Shown: positions 14,599-20,293 of the stretch, piece by piece
How the letters are laid out: each line of letters opens with the position of its first letter
Numbering within the stretch: the first letter of the stretch is position 1
IMG/VR virus record: IMGVR_UViG_3300037247_000257
Coordinates: 1 to 54,015 of that record
DNA from: a virus
Taxonomy: Duplodnaviria; Caudoviricetes
Direction: 5' to 3' (one strand)
Length of the DNA: 54,015 bases
The notes under the pieces: model-generated
Databases searched by the model: none
What the model saw: only the letters and a program-made list of their open reading frames with translations
Told to the model about the DNA's origin: nothing
Made by a program: the position numbers and the translations under genes

Positions 14599-15974
14599 GA
14601 CTCTGCCTCTTCTGTGTCTACTGTTCCAGAATCTTTAATGATACCTTCTAGTACTTTAAACAAGTAACCTTTCTGCTTCAAGAATTTAGGCGTTAATGAT
14701 TCACCATCGATACGAATACATACACCTTCTCTTAAGTGCATAGGAAATACAGTAGATGGATCTTCACCCATAGAAACTACACGGTTAGAAATAGCTTCTT
14801 GCTGAACATGAAAGTGTAGAGTTTCTTCTGCTTCTGACATAGCTTTAGCTTTGATTCTCTTAAGCTCAGGCACATGTTGTACTCCCATTTGCTCACATCT
14901 CATCTTAACTTGGTCCCAAGATAAGTCCATCGACACTCCGTCCATGTTAGTCATAGTCATACGATAAACAAAGACTTTACATTCTTTAGGTTGGCACCCA
15001 TAAGTAAATGATGTAGTATTACCGTAAGCTTCAACAAAGTCTTTATAAACATCTTTATCCATAAAAGACTTAAGCTTCTTGTTACCTTGAGAAGGCATGA
15101 TTAGTTTCCCATCAGGTAAATACCCAACGATCTCATAATACACAGTCTCACCTTTTTCAAGCTTATCTCTAAACAATTCTCCAGTCGTAGTCCAAATGTC
15201 GTGCTCATAATACGATTCACCTTCTTTAGCTACATCACCAATAGTCTTTGTTACTCTACGCGAACCTACTACATGCTTATAAACCATGTGTTGATTCTCG
15301 TCGTTGGTTTTAAAGAGAACTTTACTTAGTAACCAGCTAGAAAACTTCTTTAACAGATTATCAGTTTTATAAATAACTGGCAAGTTGCCCACTCTACAAC
15401 TTGTTCCATGGAGCTTTTCCGTTACGATAAGAATCGAGCCTGGCTTTACATGCTGTAAGTTTCTCATAAATTGATCAGTATCGACATGCTCTTTGAACGT
15501 AGGTACTAGGTTTTCCTTAGCTTTTCCCTGTTTGTTCCCTTGACACGGGGAATTACTTACAACTTGATACTTCTTGCAGATTTCGTAGCTTCCCCAATTC
15601 ATGAACTGTTGCCCAAGGTTACTTTTATCTGGTAATTGCTTGTCTTTGTGAGTATATTCTAGTGAACTAATTGGCATCCATAACCCAGAACATTTTACAC
15701 CTTTTAATCGAATTGGTCTAACACGTCTGCTATCTTCAAGATAACCTGTTTTTGATTCGTCTACGTTTAAGTTAGAATGTCTGTACAAGTTGTTTTTTGA
15801 ACAAAACTCGTGACTTAACTCAGTTTCACAGTCAAATAAAATACCTAGTTCACCAGCTTTGTGCTCTTTACTCACAATAACTGTTTCTCCGAATATCGTA
15901 CTACTTACGATGCGGTCGGCTCCTTCAATAGGCTGAAGGTCTTTTAGTTCCGCGATGATTGCTTCTCCTGTCAT
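14595..15974 (-). CDS. ATP-dependent RNA ligase (DRB0094/Rnl2-like)
   Basis: N-terminal PIEGADRI OB-like domain, motif I TEKLHGTS, motif IV REGVCIR, motif V LKQK. Confidence 0.85.
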   Translation of the reverse strand: MTGEAIIAELKDLQPIEGADRIVSSTIFGETVIVSKEHKAGELGILFDCETELSHEFCSKNNLYRHSNLNVDESKTGYLEDSRRVRPIRLKGVKCSGLWMPISSLEYTHKDKQLPDKSNLGQQFMNWGSYEICKKYQVVSNSPCQGNKQGKAKENLVPTFKEHVDTDQFMRNLQHVKPGSILIVTEKLHGTSCRVGNLPVIYKTDNLLKKFSSWLLSKVLFKTNDENQHMVYKHVVGSRRVTKTIGDVAKEGESYYEHDIWTTTGELFRDKLEKGETVYYEIVGYLPDGKLIMPSQGNKKLKSFMDKDVYKDFVEAYGNTTSFTYGCQPKECKVFVYRMTMTNMDGVSMDLSWDQVKMRCEQMGVQHVPELKRIKAKAMSEAEETLHFHVQQEAISNRVVSMGEDPSTVFPMHLREGVCIRIDGESLTPKFLKQKGYLFKVLEGIIKDSGTVDTEEAES

Positions 15975-15991
15975 GACTAGTTTTTAAGCAT

Positions 15992-16020
15992 AAAAAAAAG
16001 CCCAGGACCTTCCTGAGCTT
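15992..16020 (-). terminator. Intrinsic terminator ending tRNA operon 1
   Basis: Minus strand AAGCTCAGGA-AGG-TCCTGGGCTT running into a T8 tract. Confidence 0.8.
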
Positions 16021-16024
16021 GTCC

Positions 16025-16261
16025 CTACTTGCGTAGGCCTTTTTGATAATGTTTTACATCACGTTCGTTTCGAGCTATGTCATACGGATTTTGTAGAAAC
16101 TTCCAATCACATATATTCCATGGATTGTAAAGCTTTCTGTATTCTTTTCCGTTGCTTAGTTCTCCTTTATAACGTCTAACAGCTTTGGCTGCTTGTCTTT
16201 TAGCATACCCGCCACGGCTTGAATCAGTGTACACTGACACTTTCTTTCTTGATCTGCTCAT
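16025..16261 (-). CDS. Small highly basic protein (MSRSRKK...WNICDWKF)
   Basis: 78 aa from ATG 16261; last gene of tRNA operon 1. Confidence 0.65.
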   Translation of the reverse strand: MSRSRKKVSVYTDSSRGGYAKRQAAKAVRRYKGELSNGKEYRKLYNPWNICDWKFLQNPYDIARNERDVKHYQKGLRK

Positions 16262-16316
16262 ATTCTCTAGGTTTATACCTAAAAGACTGTTCCTTTTTTC
16301 ATAATACAAATTTAAG

Positions 16317-16387
16317 TTGTCCGGGGAGGGATCGAACCTCCATTCTCGGCTTCAAAGGCCGGCGTCCTGCCATTAGACGACCAGACA
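16317..16387 (-). tRNA. tRNA-Gln(TTG)
   Basis: TGTCTGG/CCGGACA acceptor, CT-TTG-AA loop, GGAGG-TTCGATC-CCTCC T arm. Confidence 0.92.
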
Positions 16388-16440
16388 ATAATACAGAGTG
16401 TTCTTTATACCGTTAAACTCTTACAAACATTCTCAATGCG

Positions 16441-16589
16441 TGGAAGTGAGCACGGTTTTCACTTACTAAGGCAAACCCGTTCGCTACCACACTCCTTCAC
16501 TATATACCGTCGCTTCATTCCATAGCAGCTTACCTTTATCACAGCGCTATAATAAAGACCACAGTATAATCCACTTAGCCGGCACTTCC
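16441..16589 (-). ncRNA. Unassigned ~149-nt structured RNA closed by an acceptor-like stem
   Basis: GGAAGTG/CACTTCC-A closing stem; internal helices TATACTGT/ACGGTATA and CTTTATTATAG/CTGTGATAAAG; G-U pairs favour the - strand. Confidence 0.55.
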
Positions 16590-16590
16590 G

Positions 16591-16662
16591 AGGTTCCACA
16601 CAGATTCGAACTGTGCTCTGCTGATTACAAGTCAGCTGCATCACCAACAATGCTTTGGAACC
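16591..16662 (-). tRNA. tRNA-Thr(TGT)
   Basis: GGTTCCA/TGGAACC acceptor, GCTGA-CTTGTAA-TCAGC anticodon arm, TTCGAAT T loop. Confidence 0.93.
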
Positions 16663-16665
16663 TTG

Positions 16666-16739
16666 TGGGTGTCTTCGGGATTCGAACCCTGCTATCCGGA
16701 AGCACAACCCGGCGTAGTCGCCCAGACTACTTAAGACAC
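16666..16739 (-). tRNA. tRNA-His(GTG)
   Basis: GTGTCTT/AAGACAC-CCA, CCGGG-TTGTGCT-TCCGG anticodon arm; T stem slightly irregular. Confidence 0.85.
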
Positions 16740-16741
16740 AG

Positions 16742-16813
16742 TGGAGAGAGAGGGATTTGAACCCCCGACTCCCAGATTTTCAGTCTGATACTCTACCCCT
16801 GAGTTACCTCTCC
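16742..16813 (-). tRNA. tRNA-Phe(GAA)
   Basis: GGAGAGG/TCTCTCC-A, TCAGA-CTGAAAA-TCTGG, TTCAAAT T loop. Confidence 0.93.
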
Positions 16814-16902
16814 ATGGCTCCAGAGATTTTAGATCTTTACTCCAGAACTGATCAGCTTTTACCCACACTCCTCGTGGGTCCTCACAACCAGCTAAGTCGT
16901 TG

Positions 16903-16978
16903 TCTAGGTGGCAAGATTCGAACTTGCGTGCTCGTCCTTCCAAGGGACGCGAGATAAACCGGACTCCTCTACACCTAG
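16903..16978 (-). tRNA. tRNA-Pro(TGG)
   Basis: CTAGGTG/CACCTAG-A, CGTCC-CTTGGAA-GGACG, GCAAG-TTCGAAT-CTTGC. Confidence 0.93.
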
Positions 16979-16982
16979 ATAT

Positions 16983-17019
16983 AAAAAAAACCCTAAGCTC
17001 TTGGTGGAACTTAGGGTTT
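16983..17019 (-). terminator. Attenuator terminator of tRNA operon 1
   Basis: AAACCCTAAGTTC-CACCAA-GAGCTTAGGG followed by T8, ending 4 nt before tRNA-Pro. Confidence 0.88.
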
Positions 17020-17040
17020 AGTTAGTCAAAACAGCAGAAA

Positions 17041-17115
17041 TCAATCACACACACCTAAGTTCCGTCCTATAAAGGTCGGTTGAAATGGCGTATTATGTTG
17101 TGCTATCTTGTTCAT
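17041..17115 (-). CDS. Leader peptide 1 (MNKIAQHNTPFQPTFIGRNLGVCD)
   Basis: 24-codon ORF; codons 6-15 CAA CAT AAT ACG CCA TTT CAA CCG ACC TTT; contains the antiterminator GGAACTTAGG (17054-17063). Confidence 0.8.
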   Translation of the reverse strand: MNKIAQHNTPFQPTFIGRNLGVCD

Positions 17116-17119
17116 ATGG

Positions 17120-17151
17120 TAAACTTAGTCAAAGCTTTTTACTTTTGCAAC
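17120..17151 (-). promoter_or_regulatory. Bacteroidota-type promoter for leader 1
   Basis: GTTG-N20-TAAGTTTA versus consensus TTTG-N19-21-TAnnTTTG; ends 4 nt before the leader ATG. Confidence 0.5.
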
Positions 17152-17349
17152 CATATACTTGATATTATTACAAGAAACTCTTCTTTTGTAACCATTTATC
17201 ACATCTGTTGTGTGTGTTCTTATCATTAAGGTACCACAATCTGTCTGGTGTATTATTACACCATACTGCAAATAACCTGTGTTACTTACAAAGACTTTAT
17301 CTCCTACAAACAAGTCTTTACCGTTTATATCTGTTTCTGTTATTTTCAT
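17125..17349 (-). CDS. Small YopX/KOW-like beta protein
   Basis: DINGKDLFVGDKV motif. Confidence 0.55.
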   Translation of the reverse strand: MKITETDINGKDLFVGDKVFVSNTGYLQYGVIIHQTDCGTLMIRTHTTDVINGYKRRVSCNNIKYMVAKVKSFD

Positions 17350-17570
17350 AATACCATGATCATTTTTTCAGAGTTACCGTTTTGAACCAGTCTCCATAAA
17401 CCTCTGTTACCATCAGGATCAATAAGAATATTACCGTTTTTGTATCTTCTTACAGTACCTGTCCAAATTCGATGTCCCCAATCACCGTAAGCAACTCTTG
17501 CTCCGACTTTAATTTTTTTTCCTTTTACGTCTAGATGTAATTCTGACTCCTCCATTTCTTGTAAGTGCAT
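17346..17570 (-). CDS. Small YopX/KOW-like beta protein
   Basis: DVKGKKIKVGARVAY motif. Confidence 0.55.
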   Translation of the reverse strand: MHLQEMEESELHLDVKGKKIKVGARVAYGDWGHRIWTGTVRRYKNGNILIDPDGNRGLWRLVQNGNSEKMIMVL

Positions 17571-17694
17571 ATTGTTCTTTTACGTGTTTATGAAAAGCGG
17601 AATTTAATTCTTCTACAAAAGCATCGCCTCCGTAAGCAACAAAGTCTCCACACTGAACTTTGTTTAATCCATTTTTATCTCTTGTAACTTTCAT
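17509..17694 (-). CDS. Small protein related to the two downstream ORFs
   Basis: DKNGLNKVQCGDFVAY motif; ATG directly after tRNA-Ser(GCT). Confidence 0.45.
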   Translation of the reverse strand: MKVTRDKNGLNKVQCGDFVAYGGDAFVEELNSAFHKHVKEQYALTRNGGVRITSRRKRKKN

Positions 17695-17695
17695 G

Positions 17696-17781
17696 TAGAG
17701 AGACCGAGATTCGAACTCGGGGGCCCCAGAAGGACCACTCCCTTAGCAGGGGAGCGCAATCGACCGCTCTGCCATCTCTCT
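17696..17781 (-). tRNA. tRNA-Ser(GCT)
   Basis: AGAGAGA/TCTCTCT acceptor, CTCCC-CTGCTAA-GGGAG, long variable arm; discriminator is A rather than the usual G. Confidence 0.92.
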
Positions 17782-17787
17782 AAGATA

Positions 17788-18030
17788 CCGGTTCTCGTAC
17801 CGGCAAACGCTCTTTGATATGCTTAAGGCTATTATGACGTGGTTCGCACACACGCGTGTCGCACCTAAGCAGCATACCCTCATCTTCCTCCGAGTAGAGG
17901 TAAGTATATATCGCGACACTCTAAAGTTTCAGGTGGAAAGATTGTTACACCTTCAATTATTGACCGGTGAGAGACAAACTCCCGGTCACTCTTTCCTAAA
18001 GACGCCTCCTTGTCTGGCTGGGTCACCCCT
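17788..18030 (-). ncRNA. Unassigned ~240-nt multibranch structured RNA between the two tRNA-Ser genes
   Basis: Helices TGACCGG/CCGGTCA, GTGTCGC/GCGACAC, AGGTG/CACCT, CCGGT/ACCGG and closing GGCGTCTTT/AAAGAGCGTT; no credible sense ORF. Confidence 0.5.
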
Positions 18031-18034
18031 ACTG

Positions 18035-18120
18035 CAGAGGGACAGAGATTCGAACTCTGAACAGTGTTACCTGCTACTGGTTTTCAAGACCAGCTCCTCG
18101 TCCAACCACGGACTCCCTCT
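18035..18120 (-). tRNA. tRNA-Ser(TGA)
   Basis: AGAGGGA/TCCCTCT-G, CTGGT-CTTGAAA-ACCAG, long variable arm, CAGAG-TTCGAAT-CTCTG. Confidence 0.92.
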
Positions 18121-18210
18121 ATATGAGCAACATTTTATTTTACATCAGACTTGCTCACCGATAACTGATTTGTGCGTCGCCTGGGGCCAACTACACCAAC
18201 GCAGCGTATG

Positions 18211-18293
18211 TCCAGCCTTGAGGACTCGAACCTCGCCCCCGAAAGGCCCGGATTTACAGTCCGGGTGCTAGATCCAACTAGCTTTAAGTCTGG
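18211..18293 (-). tRNA. tRNA-Tyr(GTA)
   Basis: CCGGA-CTGTAAA-TCCGG anticodon arm, variable arm with TTCG loop, GAGG-TTCGAGT-CCTC; one acceptor mismatch. Confidence 0.88.
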
Positions 18294-18298
18294 ATAAT

Positions 18299-18331
18299 AA
18301 AAAAACCCTCAACGTAAAACGAAGAGGGTTT
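18299..18331 (-). terminator. Attenuator terminator of tRNA operon 2
   Basis: AAACCCTC-TT-CGT-TTT-ACG-TT-GAGGG followed by T7, ending 5 nt before tRNA-Tyr. Confidence 0.8.
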
Positions 18332-18352
18332 CTGTAAGTTATTAGAAAAAGT

Positions 18353-18421
18353 TTATACAGTATCCTCTTGTCGGTGTTTCTCCGATTTCTTTGAATAACT
18401 ATATAGCTCTACTCTAATCAT
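18353..18421 (-). CDS. Leader peptide 2 (MIRVELYSYSKKSEKHRQEDTV)
   Basis: 22-codon ORF; codons 7-10 TAT AGT TAT TCA and codon 13 TCG; contains the antiterminator GACAAGAGGAT (18362-18372). Confidence 0.78.
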   Translation of the reverse strand: MIRVELYSYSKKSEKHRQEDTV

Positions 18422-18425
18422 GTTG

Positions 18426-18457
18426 CTAAACTACAACTTGTGTTTCTATATTCCAAA
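18426..18457 (-). promoter_or_regulatory. Bacteroidota-type promoter for leader 2
   Basis: TTTG-N20-TAGTTTAG; ends 4 nt before the leader ATG. Confidence 0.6.
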
Positions 18458-18686
18458 CTGTTTCTGACATTTTTCACATACCTCGGTTCTTACTTCTTCA
18501 TATATACCTTAACCCGAAAAAGATTCTAAATACTTTGAATTACTAGTTTATTAAACGTTCATAAAAGCTTTGTCATCAATACCCATGTCGGAAAAGGGGC
18601 TACTTCAATAATTAGGACTTATTACTAAGCGTCTTCACAGATAGCGAATATTATAGACAAGAAAATAACGCACAATACACCCAGTA

Positions 18687-18905
18687 TCATAACTCACAGT
18701 GGATAGATCTGTCACCAGACGTACGTTTATTATACTTGTCATCTAACTTTTTTCTTTCTTCTTTTTCAAGACCTCCAAATAAAGTTGCAAAAGCATCTGC
18801 TTTTTTTTGGGATATCCTTGTTTGATAAGGTCCTTCTGCATAGTCGACTAAAGCAAAACCAAGAATGATACCTCCTAGTAATCCTAGAATAATTACAAGT
18901 ATCAT
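18687..18905 (-). CDS. Small membrane-anchored protein
   Basis: N-terminal TM helix. Confidence 0.55.
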   Translation of the reverse strand: MILVIILGLLGGIILGFALVDYAEGPYQTRISQKKADAFATLFGGLEKEERKKLDDKYNKRTSGDRSIHCEL

Positions 18906-20293
18906 TTCTTGTTCTTAATAGCGTCTAAGATAAGAAGCTGCATAGGATCTCCGCTTTTGCTACCAGAACCACCACCAATGTAAGTAGTAGGTAACTTAAG
19001 TTTAGATAATGCTTCAGCTTTAGCTACTTCAGCATCTAACTGCATCTTAAGCTTAACTTCAGGAGTAATACCCGCGATAACTTTCTTCTTAATCTCATAA
19101 GCTTCAGCATCAGCTTTTACTCTTTTCTTCTCAGCATTAATTTTCTCAGTTTCTAAAGCTATCAAAGCTAACTCTTTATTAGACTTTTCTTCTTGAACTT
19201 TAGTCTCTTTAGCAATCAAGATAGATACAGCAGCTTTCTCTTGTTTAGATCTTTCTGCTTCCTTATCTCTCTCACCTTCAGCTCTGATACGTTGTTGCTC
19301 CATCTTAGCAGTCTCGATCTTTTGCTGTTGCATTTGACGCTTAGCAGATTCGTCTTTCTGTTTGTTAAGTCTTGCCTGGTAGCCAGGGTCCATTTTAACT
19401 TGATCAACGATAACACTAGTTACTATAATACCATTTTCAGTAATCTCATGTGGAATTCTGATAGGTACACCGTTTTTAGTGATTTTCTCTACTACATATC
19501 TTACAGAGATATCTTTAATCTTTCTTTTAACTTTAGTATCCGTGATATCTGAAGTATAAGTAGTATCTCTATATTCATTCTTACGAACTTTATAAGTACC
19601 GTCTGTAAGTTGTTCATCAAACGCTTGTCTAAAAGACTGAGCATCACCCGAGATGTAATCTTGAGCGGAGAACATATAACCAGTTTGGATAGCTTGCTCA
19701 CGTACAGTTGGTAATAAAGTTTGGTGAACTAAGTTTTCCATAGTTCTAAACTTCACAGCCATTTTAATGAACTTCTCAGGATCCTTTGGTAGTTCAAACT
19801 TCGATGTAAGCGACATGTCAGCAGTTACTTGGTCAACAAAACGAATAGGAATCGGCTTCATAGCCCCTTCTACTTCGTCACTGATTTCACCGTAAGATGC
19901 TTTAACATCGATGTATTTCTGCCATTCTTGCACTTTAACAAAAGGTCCTACGTAATGATAACCTTCGTCCATTATAGCACTTTTAGAACCACCTGGTTTG
20001 ATAATCAAATACTGGTACCCAGCTTCACCATACATTAAAGTGTTACTAATGAAGAATAGACCAAAACTAATCAACAACATAACAACTCCTTTTTTCCAAC
20101 CAGCTATCGCTAGTAAAATAGCAGGAGATGCTTCAACCGCTACTTTCTTAGTTATTTTCTGCTCCTTCCATCTGTCCCACTCTTCAACTTCCTTAACCTC
20201 TGTCTTTTCTTGCAGCGATAAGAAACTAGTACCAATAGCTACAGCACCTAGTATTAGCAAGATTATTCCTGCGAGTATAATTAAACCAATCAT
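18902..20293 (-). CDS. SPFH/Band 7 (prohibitin/flotillin-like) membrane protein
   Basis: N-terminal TM helices, Band-7-like domain (IPIRFVD, LLPTVRE), long A/E/K coiled coil. Confidence 0.8.
   Translation of the reverse strand: MIGLIILAGIILLILGAVAIGTSFLSLQEKTEVKEVEEWDRWKEQKITKKVAVEASPAILLAIAGWKKGVVMLLISFGLFFISNTLMYGEAGYQYLIIKPGGSKSAIMDEGYHYVGPFVKVQEWQKYIDVKASYGEISDEVEGAMKPIPIRFVDQVTADMSLTSKFELPKDPEKFIKMAVKFRTMENLVHQTLLPTVREQAIQTGYMFSAQDYISGDAQSFRQAFDEQLTDGTYKVRKNEYRDTTYTSDITDTKVKRKIKDISVRYVVEKITKNGVPIRIPHEITENGIIVTSVIVDQVKMDPGYQARLNKQKDESAKRQMQQQKIETAKMEQQRIRAEGERDKEAERSKQEKAAVSILIAKETKVQEEKSNKELALIALETEKINAEKKRVKADAEAYEIKKKVIAGITPEVKLKMQLDAEVAKAEALSKLKLPTTYIGGGSGSKSGDPMQLLILDAIKNKK

What the first reader, a model, noticed from the sequence alone, without database searches (positions are those of the whole stretch)
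18299..18457. Attenuator 2: leader MIRVELYSYSKKSEKHRQEDTV before tRNA-Tyr(GTA), Ser(TGA), Ser(GCT)
Codons 7-10 are TAT AGT TAT TCA and codon 13 is TCG. The match reaches isoacceptor level: AGT needs Ser(GCT), TCA/TCG need Ser(TGA) and TAT needs Tyr(GTA), which are the three tRNAs encoded downstream. Sampling both serine codon boxes suggests sensing of individual tRNA species rather than only amino-acid supply (inference). GACAAGAGGAT (18372-18362) can pair with terminator arm ACCCTCTTCGTT (6-bp core plus flanking pairs), and TCGG-AGAAACA-CCGA (18385-18371) is the competing 1:2 hairpin. The antiterminator is weaker than in attenuator 1.
Basis: partly seen in the sequence, partly recalled or inferred. 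Interest (0 to 1): 0.9.

Follow-up and report, generated by a model that had tools for sequence, protein, structure and literature searches.

The report
Codon-matched attenuator before phage Tyr/Ser tRNAs
A phage places a tiny translated test gene, containing tyrosine and serine codons, and a switchable transcription stop directly in front of its tyrosine and serine tRNA genes, so it probably makes these tRNAs only when ribosomes read those codons slowly.

Summary
On the minus strand a 22-codon ORF (18421-18353) has Tyr/Ser codons at positions 7-10 and 13. An intrinsic terminator (18333-18301) follows. Its U tract ends a few bases before a tRNA-Tyr(GTA)-like gene, followed by tRNA-Ser(TGA) and tRNA-Ser(GCT).

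The Tyr/Ser run is unlikely by chance (scan statistic P=0.0022). Of 43 tRNA sets tested, the leader's own set fits it best.

Folding gives a four-region attenuator. A significant 1:2 hairpin contains the regulatory codons. A ribosome placed at codons 7-13 frees AAGAGG..CUGUA to pair with UACAG..CCUCUU, which covers part of the terminator's 5' arm. This antiterminator is weak, and its statistical support is marginal.

Comparison is the main support. The same design stands before Tyr-first tRNA blocks in five other phages. These include cultured Cellulophaga phages phi10:1 (same promoter box and same AGAGG/CCUCU pairing) and phi4:1. In a blind pipeline, none of 5000 permutations of tRNA sets reached the observed match.

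The isoacceptor-level claim is not significant for this leader alone (chance 0.26) and only modestly supported across units (P=0.004). The tRNA-Tyr is non-canonical but unchanged in one relative and without listed differences in a second.

This scan has already found this class in at least 8 other genomes. I found no paper describing it. Verdict: a real, weaker member of an apparently unpublished variant of leader-peptide attenuation.

The parts
18454..18457 (-). -33-like TTTG
   Evidence: Read from the sequence. It lies 20 nt upstream of the -7-like box. The Bacteroidota promoter consensus (TTTG / TAnnTTTG) is recalled, not tested.
18426..18433 (-). -7-like box TAGTTTAG, ending 4 nt before the ATG (suggests a leaderless or near-leaderless transcript)
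   Evidence: The same 12-mer TTGTAGTTTAGC followed by 3 nt and ATG precedes tRNA leaders in Cellulophaga phages phi10:1 (L074) and phi19:1 (L278). Only 2 of 118 matches to this pattern in IMG/VR are followed by a tRNA.
18353..18421 (-). Leader ORF, 22 codons plus TAA
   Evidence: It is the only ATG ORF ending within -80..+12 nt of the terminator stem in the automatic pipeline.
18392..18403 (-). Regulatory codons 7-10: TAT AGT TAT TCA (Tyr Ser Tyr Ser)
   Evidence: Scan statistic P=0.0022. No difference is listed here in the X6 relative.
18383..18385 (-). Codon 13: TCG (Ser)
18341..18418 (-). 1:2 hairpin (anti-antiterminator). The 5' arm 18418-18393 holds codons 2-10; the 3' arm 18365-18341 holds the end of the ORF and the sequence behind it.
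   Evidence: -17.9 kcal/mol, z -3.42, 2 of 200 shuffles fold as well.
18371..18385 (-).
18356..18369 (-). Antiterminator 5' strand: AAGAGG (18369-18364) and CUGUA (18360-18356), inside codons 18-22
   Evidence: it forms when the A site is at codons 7-13 and the transcript ends before the terminator's 3' arm.
18322..18336 (-). Antiterminator 3' strand: UACAG (18336-18332) and CCUCUU (18327-18322). It overlaps the terminator's 5' arm.
18299..18333 (-). Intrinsic terminator: hairpin 18333-18301 and U tract to 18299
   Evidence: -16.4 kcal/mol, z -5.21. My script found it. The simple scan missed it, most likely because its loop limit is 8.
18210..18292 (-). tRNA-Tyr(GTA)-like gene, non-canonical
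   Evidence: Found only with relaxed ARAGORN and missed. Relative to the phi4:1 and phi10:1 tRNA-Tyr it has extra bases after position 8. The MFE fold is cloverleaf-like. It is identical in the X4 relative, while the spacer next to it is replaced.
18034..18120 (-). tRNA-Ser(TGA)
17695..17781 (-). tRNA-Ser(GCT)
   Evidence: RF00005, 53.9 bits.

Best explanation
This is a ribosome-mediated (leader-peptide) transcription attenuator that gates a phage tRNA block: a Tyr-like tRNA, Ser-UGA and Ser-GCU.

Proposed mechanism:
- Transcription probably starts at or next to the AUG. This is inferred from a conserved promoter-like box 4 nt upstream.
- A ribosome translates the 22-codon leader.
- If it passes quickly, or if no ribosome loads, the large 1:2 hairpin or a ribosome at the stop codon keeps AAGAGG..CUGUA unavailable. 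The terminator then forms, and RNA polymerase stops a few bases before the first tRNA.
- If the ribosome lingers at codons 7-13 (Tyr, Ser, Tyr, Ser, ..., Ser), it melts the 5' arm of the 1:2 hairpin. The freed 3' arm pairs with UACAG..CCUCUU and so covers part of the terminator's 5' arm before the 3' arm is made. Polymerase then reads through into the tRNA genes.
- The result is feedback: the tRNAs are made when decoding of their own codons is slow.

What is shown: the sequence anatomy, the statistics, and the same design in other phages. What is inferred: translation of the ORF, the kinetic choice between folds, and the response to tRNA supply.
For: Anatomy: the ORF; the terminator, whose U tract ends 3-6 nt before the tRNA-like gene and so leaves no room for a separate promoter; and a 1:2 hairpin with z -3.42.

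Switch model: on transcripts cut before the terminator's 3' arm, the antiterminator is the MFE fold with the A site at codons 7, 8, 9, 10 or 13. It is not the MFE fold with no ribosome, or with the A site at codon 16, 19 or the stop codon. The masked fold is more stable than shuffles (-11.4 against -4.9 +/- 2.1; 4 of 400 reach it).

Codon match: scan P=0.0022. The leader's own set {S,Y} scores best of the 43 tRNA sets (0 of 42 others reach it). The neighbouring block's set scores 1.05 against 3.95.

Class evidence from a blind pipeline: 150 terminator-plus-tRNA units in 137 locus strands gave 43 unique leaders with the terminator <=60 nt from the first tRNA. Of these, 12 have P<0.01 and 19 have P<0.05. 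None of 5000 permutations of tRNA sets reaches the observed mean score.

Homologous Tyr-first units show the same switch in the same model: phi4:1 (L001), phi10:1 (L074), L033, L097 and L133. Four of these 5 have antiterminator complementarity that <=4 of 300 shuffles reach. phi10:1 shares the promoter box, the (G/A)AGAGG segment and the CCTCTT arm.

Natural relatives: the X6 contig's listed differences in the ORF are three amino-acid changes at non-cognate codons (4, 5 and 12). The other two listed differences are one terminator-loop base and one U-tract base. None is listed in the Tyr/Ser codons, the antiterminator strands or the terminator arms, and the folds are kept.
Against: - The antiterminator is weak. 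Simple duplex energy is -9.3 against -7.0 in shuffles (z -0.97; 50 of 300 shuffles reach it). The probability that the arm is paired is 0.61 against 0.33 (39 of 400 shuffles reach it).
- At equilibrium on the full transcript the terminator wins at every ribosome position, so the model rests on an untested kinetic assumption.
- Only 5 of the 13 codons in the switch window are Tyr or Ser. The whole-leader binomial gives P=0.059.
- The tRNA-Tyr fails default ARAGORN and Rfam.
- In the class, 24 of 43 units are not significant. Two homologues (L074, L133) keep Ser codons without a Ser tRNA behind them.
- Five substitutions and 16 gap letters of the X6 contig were not shown.
- No sequence of the closest relatives (57-80% identical SPFH neighbour gene) could be fetched.
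Confidence: 0.72

Rival explanations
1. It is a real translated attenuator, but it reports general translation status rather than specifically Tyr/Ser tRNA supply. It could report ribosome availability, any slow codon in codons 1-14, or amino-acid supply. On this view the Tyr/Ser codons are partly inherited from a larger ancestral Tyr-Ser-Asn-Trp-Phe-Cys unit.
For: The model gives the antiterminator for any stall from codon 5 to about codon 14, and 8 of those 13 codons are not Tyr or Ser. The isoacceptor match of this leader is not significant (0.26 and 0.70). Homologues L074 and L133 keep Ser codons without Ser tRNAs.
Against: The leader lacks Asn, Trp, Phe and Cys codons, as does its tRNA block, whereas relatives that have those tRNAs have those codons. 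Own-set specificity is seen across units. Pooled codon-level decodability is 33 of 45 against 24.2 expected (P=0.0037). The listed natural changes fall on the non-cognate codons.
Confidence: 0.13
2. It is an ordinary, constitutive terminator of the upstream genes, leaky enough to let the tRNAs be made, and the short ORF and its Tyr/Ser run are chance.
For: The antiterminator is not above chance in two of three tests. No terminator is seen between the upstream genes and the leader, so this hairpin would also end their transcripts.
Against: Scan P=0.0022 and best of 43 sets. The 1:2 hairpin has z -3.42. The promoter box lies 4 nt from the ATG, as in phi10:1, phi19:1 and phi4:1. The same ORF-terminator-tRNA layout with matching codons recurs in other phages. 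The second unit of the window gives P<=0.0002 and has a 10-nt perfect antiterminator.
Confidence: 0.09
3. The hairpins are untranslated RNA elements, such as a processing or stability signal for the tRNA precursor or a protein-binding site. On this view the reading frame is a by-product of AU-rich pairing (UAUAUAGU with ACUGUAUA).
For: The Tyr/Ser codons lie inside a stem whose sequence is constrained by pairing. Searches included no RNA or ribosome data, so nothing checked here shows that the ORF is translated.
Against: Analogous leaders in five other phages have quite different stems but again carry Tyr, Ser and related codons in frame after an ATG. The X6 relative keeps the frame open with the listed changes. 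No Rfam family fits (best trpB motif 25.3 bits against a gathering score of 59).
Confidence: 0.06

Closest known systems
Leader-peptide transcription attenuators of amino-acid operons (trpL, hisL, pheL, leuL; the multivalent thrL and ilvL)
   Same: All have a short ORF with regulatory codons, a 1:2 / 2:3 / 3:4 set of alternative hairpins, and an intrinsic terminator. A stalled ribosome selects the antiterminator. (The mechanism is as described in the passages of PMC3082878 read and in the abstract of PMC1183508 seen. The family list is recalled.)
   Different: Here the genes behind the terminator are tRNAs, not biosynthetic enzymes, so the product feeds back on decoding itself. The leader mixes codons of two amino acids, and both Ser codon boxes, to match a tRNA set. 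The transcript is probably leaderless and from a Bacteroidota-type promoter. The element lies in a phage.
pheM leader of the pheST (phenylalanyl-tRNA synthetase) operon of E. coli (recalled, not checked here)
   Same: It is a leader-peptide attenuator whose output belongs to the translation apparatus and which senses charged tRNA.
   Different: It controls a synthetase, not tRNA genes, and uses a single amino acid. I checked E. coli K-12 pheV (a tRNA-Phe gene) and found a plain promoter and no leader ORF.
T-box riboswitches
   Same: They sense tRNA status and choose between a terminator and an antiterminator.
   Different: A T-box binds uncharged tRNA directly, needs no translation, and controls synthetase and amino-acid genes. 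No T-box or other Rfam match is present here.
Codon-matched leaders before tRNA blocks of Cellulophaga phages phi4:1, phi10:1 and phi19:1 and of uncultured IMG/VR phages
   Same: Same layout: a promoter box, a short ORF in the amino acids of the block behind it, a terminator ending 0-9 nt before the first tRNA, and an antiterminator near the end of the ORF. phi10:1 shares the box TTGTAGTTTAGC, the AGAGG/CCUCU pair and a Tyr-first block.
   Different: The window's unit is the smallest of these (Tyr, Ser, Ser only), has the weakest antiterminator of the six Tyr-first units, and has a non-canonical tRNA-Tyr. In the records I looked at, the phi10:1 leader has no annotation. In phi4:1 two of three are unannotated or listed as hypothetical proteins.

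Membership tests
Ribosome-mediated (leader-peptide) transcription attenuators | Short ORF with a start codon just upstream of a terminator | tested here: met
   The 22-codon ATG ORF 18421-18353 has its stop 20 nt before the terminator stem.
Ribosome-mediated (leader-peptide) transcription attenuators | Regulatory codons cognate to the regulated product, enriched beyond chance | tested here: met
   Tyr/Ser at codons 7-10 and 13. Scan P=0.0022. Own set is best of 43. The whole-leader binomial gives only 0.059.
Ribosome-mediated (leader-peptide) transcription attenuators | Intrinsic terminator between the leader and the regulated genes | tested here: met
   -16.4 kcal/mol, z -5.21, followed by a 7-U tract. 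The first tRNA-like gene starts 3-6 nt after it.
Ribosome-mediated (leader-peptide) transcription attenuators | Antiterminator (2:3) that competes for the terminator's 5' arm | tested here: inconclusive
   It forms in the ribosome-masked, truncated folds, and that fold's energy is reached by 4 of 400 shuffles. However, duplex complementarity is reached by 50 of 300 shuffles, and the arm-pairing probability by 39 of 400.
Ribosome-mediated (leader-peptide) transcription attenuators | Anti-antiterminator (1:2) whose 5' arm contains the regulatory codons | tested here: met
   Hairpin 18418-18341, -17.9 kcal/mol, z -3.42. Codons 7-9 lie in its 5' arm.
Ribosome-mediated (leader-peptide) transcription attenuators | Stop codon placed so that a terminating ribosome covers region 2 | tested here: met
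   The stop is at leader nt 67-69, and the antiterminator strand is at nt 53-66. With the A site at the stop codon, no antiterminator forms.
Ribosome-mediated (leader-peptide) transcription attenuators | The leader is translated, and read-through rises when the cognate charged tRNA is scarce | not testable with these tools
   This needs reporter, Term-seq or Ribo-seq data.
Ribosome-mediated (leader-peptide) transcription attenuators | The design is conserved in homologous leaders | tested here: met
   Five other Tyr-first units switch in the same model. Four of these 5 have complementarity that <=4 of 300 shuffles reach. phi10:1 keeps AGAGG/CCUCU. The listed differences in the X4 and X6 relatives spare the functional parts (some differences were not shown).
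T-box riboswitch | Specifier loop plus the conserved T-box sequence, matching Rfam RF00230 | tested here: not met
   No T-box match at E<=10 in 15900-18800.
Canonical tRNA (for the Tyr gene) | Cloverleaf that passes ARAGORN default or Rfam RF00005 | tested here: not met
   Missed and called only with -ps. It has extra bases after position 8 and acceptor mismatches. It is still unchanged in the X4 relative.

The most novel reading that the evidence does not exclude
The codon-matched leaders are on-demand sensors of host tRNA-targeting defences. When an anticodon nuclease or a similar defence depletes Tyr or Ser tRNAs, ribosomes stall on the leader and the terminator is bypassed. The phage then makes replacement tRNAs, possibly cleavage-resistant ones such as the odd tRNA-Tyr. 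Read-through also feeds the downstream attenuated block and the RNA repair genes (ligase and kinase-phosphatase) in the same leftward unit. Each block would then be an independently triggered counter-defence module.
Probability: 0.2. Interest if true: 0.9.

Novelty: new variant of a known kind. Interest (0 to 1): 0.78.

Why it matters
Leader-peptide attenuation is textbook for amino-acid operons. I found no description of it controlling tRNA genes (full-text searches).

If the reading is right, phages measure the decoding speed of chosen codons and adjust their own tRNA supply block by block. That would explain why phage tRNA arrays are split into blocks that start right after terminators. It would also give a direct readout of which tRNAs a phage finds limiting in its host, and it bears on the arms race around tRNA-cleaving defence systems.

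A close homologue stands in the cultured Cellulophaga phage phi10:1, and further units stand in phi4:1 and phi19:1, so the idea can be tested directly.

Tried and rejected
Searches for close relatives of the window failed:
- Single-protein scans of IMG/VR with the SPFH gene and the RNA ligase found none. An alignment-based scan also found none.
- The one metagenome scan gave three loci without tRNAs.
- blastn of the region against GenBank phages found only tRNA-sized matches.

RNA families: Rfam gave no family for the leader. The best matches, the trpB motif at 25.3 bits and Yfr10 at 21.6 bits, are both far below gathering score.

Equilibrium folds: full-length folds with ribosome masks always kept the terminator. 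I therefore used transcripts cut before the terminator's 3' arm.

Expression: no RNA holder was listed for the stretch, so nothing can be said about expression.

Cellular precedent: I recalled that E. coli tRNA-Phe genes might carry a Phe-rich leader. K-12 pheV has none, and I did not check pheU. A search for pheU/pheV with attenuation found nothing relevant.

Wasted scan: the pattern had one N too many. All 60 hits were taken as chance matches and were not examined.

Supplementary files of papers were not consulted. None of the papers seen bears on the claim.
Full report
WHAT IS THERE

The window is the whole 54-kb contig held for this genome. It looks like a phage of Bacteroidota. It has no close relative among GenBank phages. 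Its SPFH gene next to the finding has its nearest cellular relatives in Bacteroidota genera. Its tRNA-Pro resembles those of Cellulophaga phages.

On the minus strand, the ORF 18421-18353 reads MIRVELYSYSKKSEKHRQEDTV. Codons 7-10 are TAT AGT TAT TCA and codon 13 is TCG. A hairpin with a 7-U tract (18333-18299) follows 20 nt after the stop codon. The tRNA block starts 3-6 nt behind the U tract:
- a tRNA-Tyr(GTA)-like gene (18292-18210);
- tRNA-Ser(TGA) (18120-18034);
- a 243-nt non-coding stretch;
- tRNA-Ser(GCT) (17781-17695).

THE tRNA-Tyr CAVEAT

Default ARAGORN and the Rfam tRNA model at E<=10 do not find the Tyr gene. Relaxed ARAGORN calls it with a poor acceptor stem. Alignment with the tRNA-Tyr of phi4:1 and phi10:1 shows extra bases after position 8. 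The MFE fold is cloverleaf-like, with a perfect anticodon arm and loop CUGUAAA.

It is nonetheless conserved. A contig of run X4 covers 18184-18335 with only one loop substitution (18318) and a one-base U-tract deletion, while the spacer just downstream (18127-18183) is replaced by 96 other letters. So the gene is unusual but under constraint.

IS THE CODON MATCH MORE THAN CHANCE?

With background amino-acid frequencies from long ORFs of all loci, the whole-leader count (5 of 21 residues Tyr or Ser; expected 0.10 per residue) gives only P=0.059. A scan statistic for the best window gives P=0.0022 from 4000 simulations.

Scored against all 43 tRNA sets of the survey, the leader's own set {S,Y} is the best: 0 of 42 others reach it. 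The set of the window's other block scores 1.05 against 3.95. Leader 1 scores 0.00 on {S,Y} and 5.53 on its own set.

STRUCTURE

The leader folds into a 78-nt hairpin (18418-18341; -17.9 kcal/mol; z -3.42; 2 of 200 shuffles fold as well). Its 5' arm contains codons 2-10. The terminator folds at -16.4 kcal/mol (z -5.21).

On the full transcript the terminator is always the equilibrium fold, whatever the ribosome position. This is usual for attenuators, but it means the choice must be kinetic.

On transcripts cut before the terminator's 3' arm, results depend on the ribosome:
- With the A site at codon 7, 8, 9, 10 or 13, the MFE fold is a two-part antiterminator: AAGAGG (18369-18364) with CCUCUU (18327-18322), plus CUGUA (18360-18356) with UACAG (18336-18332).
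- With no ribosome, or with the A site at codon 16, 19 or the stop codon, that fold does not form.

Statistical support for the antiterminator is mixed:
- Duplex energy is -9.3 against -7.0 in shuffles (z -0.97; 50 of 300 shuffles reach it).
- Probability that the arm is paired is 0.61 against 0.33 (39 of 400 shuffles reach it).
- Energy of the masked fold is -11.4 against -4.9 +/- 2.1 (4 of 400 shuffles reach it).

Attenuator 1 of the window is much clearer. It has a 10-nt perfect complement (z -4.26; 0 of 300 shuffles reach it).

COMPARISON WITH OTHER PHAGES

Cellulophaga phage phi4:1 (L001) has three such units in its tRNA array:
- ..MKIQRLHLQELEQP.. before Pro Glu Gln His Leu Leu Arg.
- A leader rich in K, I, V, T, G, D, A and R before Ala Lys Ile Gly Met Asp Thr Val Arg Met.
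- MKTNYCTYNNSNWSFSY.. before Tyr Ser Ser Asn Trp Phe. The second Ser tRNA is found only at the relaxed threshold.

Each has a terminator ending 5-6 nt before the first tRNA.

I fetched IMG/VR loci through two tRNA patterns and ran a fixed pipeline. Its rules were:
- relaxed ARAGORN for tRNAs;
- hairpin-plus-U-tract terminators of <=-8 kcal/mol lying <=260 nt upstream of a tRNA;
- leader defined as the longest ATG ORF ending -80..+12 nt from the stem;
- tRNA set defined as the tRNAs up to the next terminator.

Yield of 150 units in 137 locus strands:
| Category | Units |
|---|---|
| No ATG ORF | 42 |
| Terminator >60 nt from the first tRNA | 31 |
| Remaining | 77 |
| Unique leaders among the 77 | 43 |

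Of the 43 unique leaders, 12 have scan P<0.01 and 19 have P<0.05; 24 are not significant. Ten leaders fit their own set best of all 43. None of 5000 permutations of tRNA sets reaches the observed mean score (2.51 against 1.19 +/- 0.12). Codon-matched units also have stronger antiterminator complementarity (mean z -2.66, n=19) than the rest (-1.16, n=24).

HOMOLOGUES OF ATTENUATOR 2

Five other units begin with tRNA-Tyr and carry Tyr, Ser, Asn, Trp, Phe and Cys codons:
| Locus | tRNA block |
|---|---|
| L001 | Y S S N W F |
| L033 | Y S S N |
| L074 | Y W F C |
| L097 | Y S S N F C |
| L133 | Y N W F C |

In the same ribosome-mask model, all five form an antiterminator when the ribosome sits in the regulatory codons. 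In L033 and L074 the fold is absent with the ribosome at the stop codon, as in the window. In L001, L097 and L133 the outer pairs to the terminator arm persist in that fold, so the switch is less clean there. Complementarity is reached by 4, 0, 2, 1 and 30 of 300 shuffles respectively.

L074 is Cellulophaga phage phi10:1 (100% identity to NC_021802). It shares three features with the window: the box TTGTAGTTTAGC followed by 3 nt and ATG, a (G/A)AGAGG segment near the end of the ORF, and the CCTCTT terminator arm. The same box precedes a Pro-Gln-His-Leu-Arg leader in phi19:1 (L278). Only 2 of 118 pattern matches are followed by a tRNA, so the box alone is not specific.

The window's leader has no Asn, Trp, Phe or Cys codon, in line with its reduced block. 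L074 and L133, however, keep Ser codons without a Ser tRNA behind them, so the match is not perfect across the class.

NATURAL VARIANTS

A contig of run X6 covers 18034-18472. Its listed differences in the attenuator are:
- three amino-acid changes at codons 4, 5 and 12 (none of them Tyr or Ser);
- one base at -2 from the AUG;
- one terminator-loop base;
- one U-tract base.

None is listed in the Tyr/Ser codons, the antiterminator strands, the terminator arms or the tRNA-Tyr-like gene. With these changes the frame stays open and the folds are kept. The caveats are that this is a single contig at depth about 7, and that 5 substitutions and 16 gap letters of it were not displayed.

THE ISOACCEPTOR CLAIM

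AGT, TCA and TCG are read by the two Ser tRNAs under strict wobble, and TAT by GTA. With the window's codon usage, 3 of 3 decodable has chance 0.26, and sampling both boxes has chance 0.70. This leader alone therefore proves nothing.

Pooled over the codon-matched units:
- 33 of 45 Ser, Leu and Arg leader codons are strictly decodable by their own block, against 24.2 expected (P=0.0037). Without the window the figures are 30 of 42 (P=0.0085).
- Where only one codon box is represented in the block, 11 of 14 codons lie in that box, against 7.5 expected.
- All 6 units with both Ser tRNAs sample both boxes (chance 0.11-0.22).

That is modest support for sensing at the level of tRNA species.

KNOWN SYSTEMS

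The mechanism is that of the classical leader-peptide attenuators. The passages of PMC3082878 read describe the 1:2 / 2:3 / 3:4 logic. The abstract of PMC1183508 was seen. What differs is the target (tRNA genes), the mixed checklist leader, the probably leaderless transcript, and the phage setting.

No T-box or other Rfam family matches. E. coli pheV has no such leader.

Eight full-text searches found no paper on attenuators in front of tRNA genes. The library lacks most subscription journals, so this is not proof of absence.

This scan has reported the same class in at least eight other genomes. My survey is independent of those notes and agrees with them.

VERDICT

Three corrections apply: to the 1:2 hairpin, to the antiterminator, and to the strength of the isoacceptor argument. 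It is the weaker of the two units in the window. Its value lies in belonging to an apparently unpublished class, and in having a close homologue in a cultured phage.

Noticed in passing
window 18121-18209 and 17782-18033: The spacers inside the tRNA block vary greatly between relatives. The X4 contig replaces 18127-18183 with 96 other letters. The X6 contig has many substitutions and indels in 18129-18196 and lacks 123 nt (17911-18033) of the 243-nt non-coding stretch. The flanking tRNAs are kept.
   Followed up: partly
window 17509-17694 (-): A 61-aa ORF starts with its ATG directly at the 3' end of tRNA-Ser(GCT), and two 74-aa ORFs follow it. No terminator was seen before leader 1, so read-through of attenuator 2 would run into attenuator 1 and the two would act in series.
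   Followed up: no
window 17115-16988 (-): Attenuator 1: the leader MNKIAQHNTPFQPTFIGRNLGVCD stands before Pro Phe His Thr Gln tRNAs. Scan P<=0.0002. It has a perfect 10-nt antiterminator, GGAACTTAGG against CCTAAGTTCC (z -4.26). The switch model works for codons 6-14.
   Followed up: partly
L003, L005, L006, L012-L015 and others (IMG/VR): A 46-48-aa 'all amino acids' leader family (MKAIQNIHQQLSTATRALNTWSDSLCGDV..GGTGV) stands 88-217 nt upstream of arrays of more than 20 tRNAs. The leader segment CCG(G/A)G tends to vary together with the terminator arm C(C/T)CGG: 5 loci are consistent, 1 has a wobble pair and 1 a mismatch, out of 7 inspected by eye.
   Followed up: partly
L001 4787-4906 (Cellulophaga phage phi4:1): The second phi4:1 leader repeats the promoter box of the first but has no ATG 4 nt behind it. 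A GTG further in would start a leader that matches the Ala-Lys-Ile-Gly-Met-Asp-Thr-Val-Arg block. The record annotates a TTG-started hypothetical protein (gp075) there.
   Followed up: no
window 18902-20293 (-): The phage carries a 463-aa SPFH/band-7 protein (PF01145). Its nearest cellular relatives, at about 55% identity, are in Bacteroidota (Carboxylicivirga, Persicobacter, Marinoscillum and others). This points to the host group.
   Followed up: no
Surveys that rely on that scan would undercount such units.
   Followed up: yes
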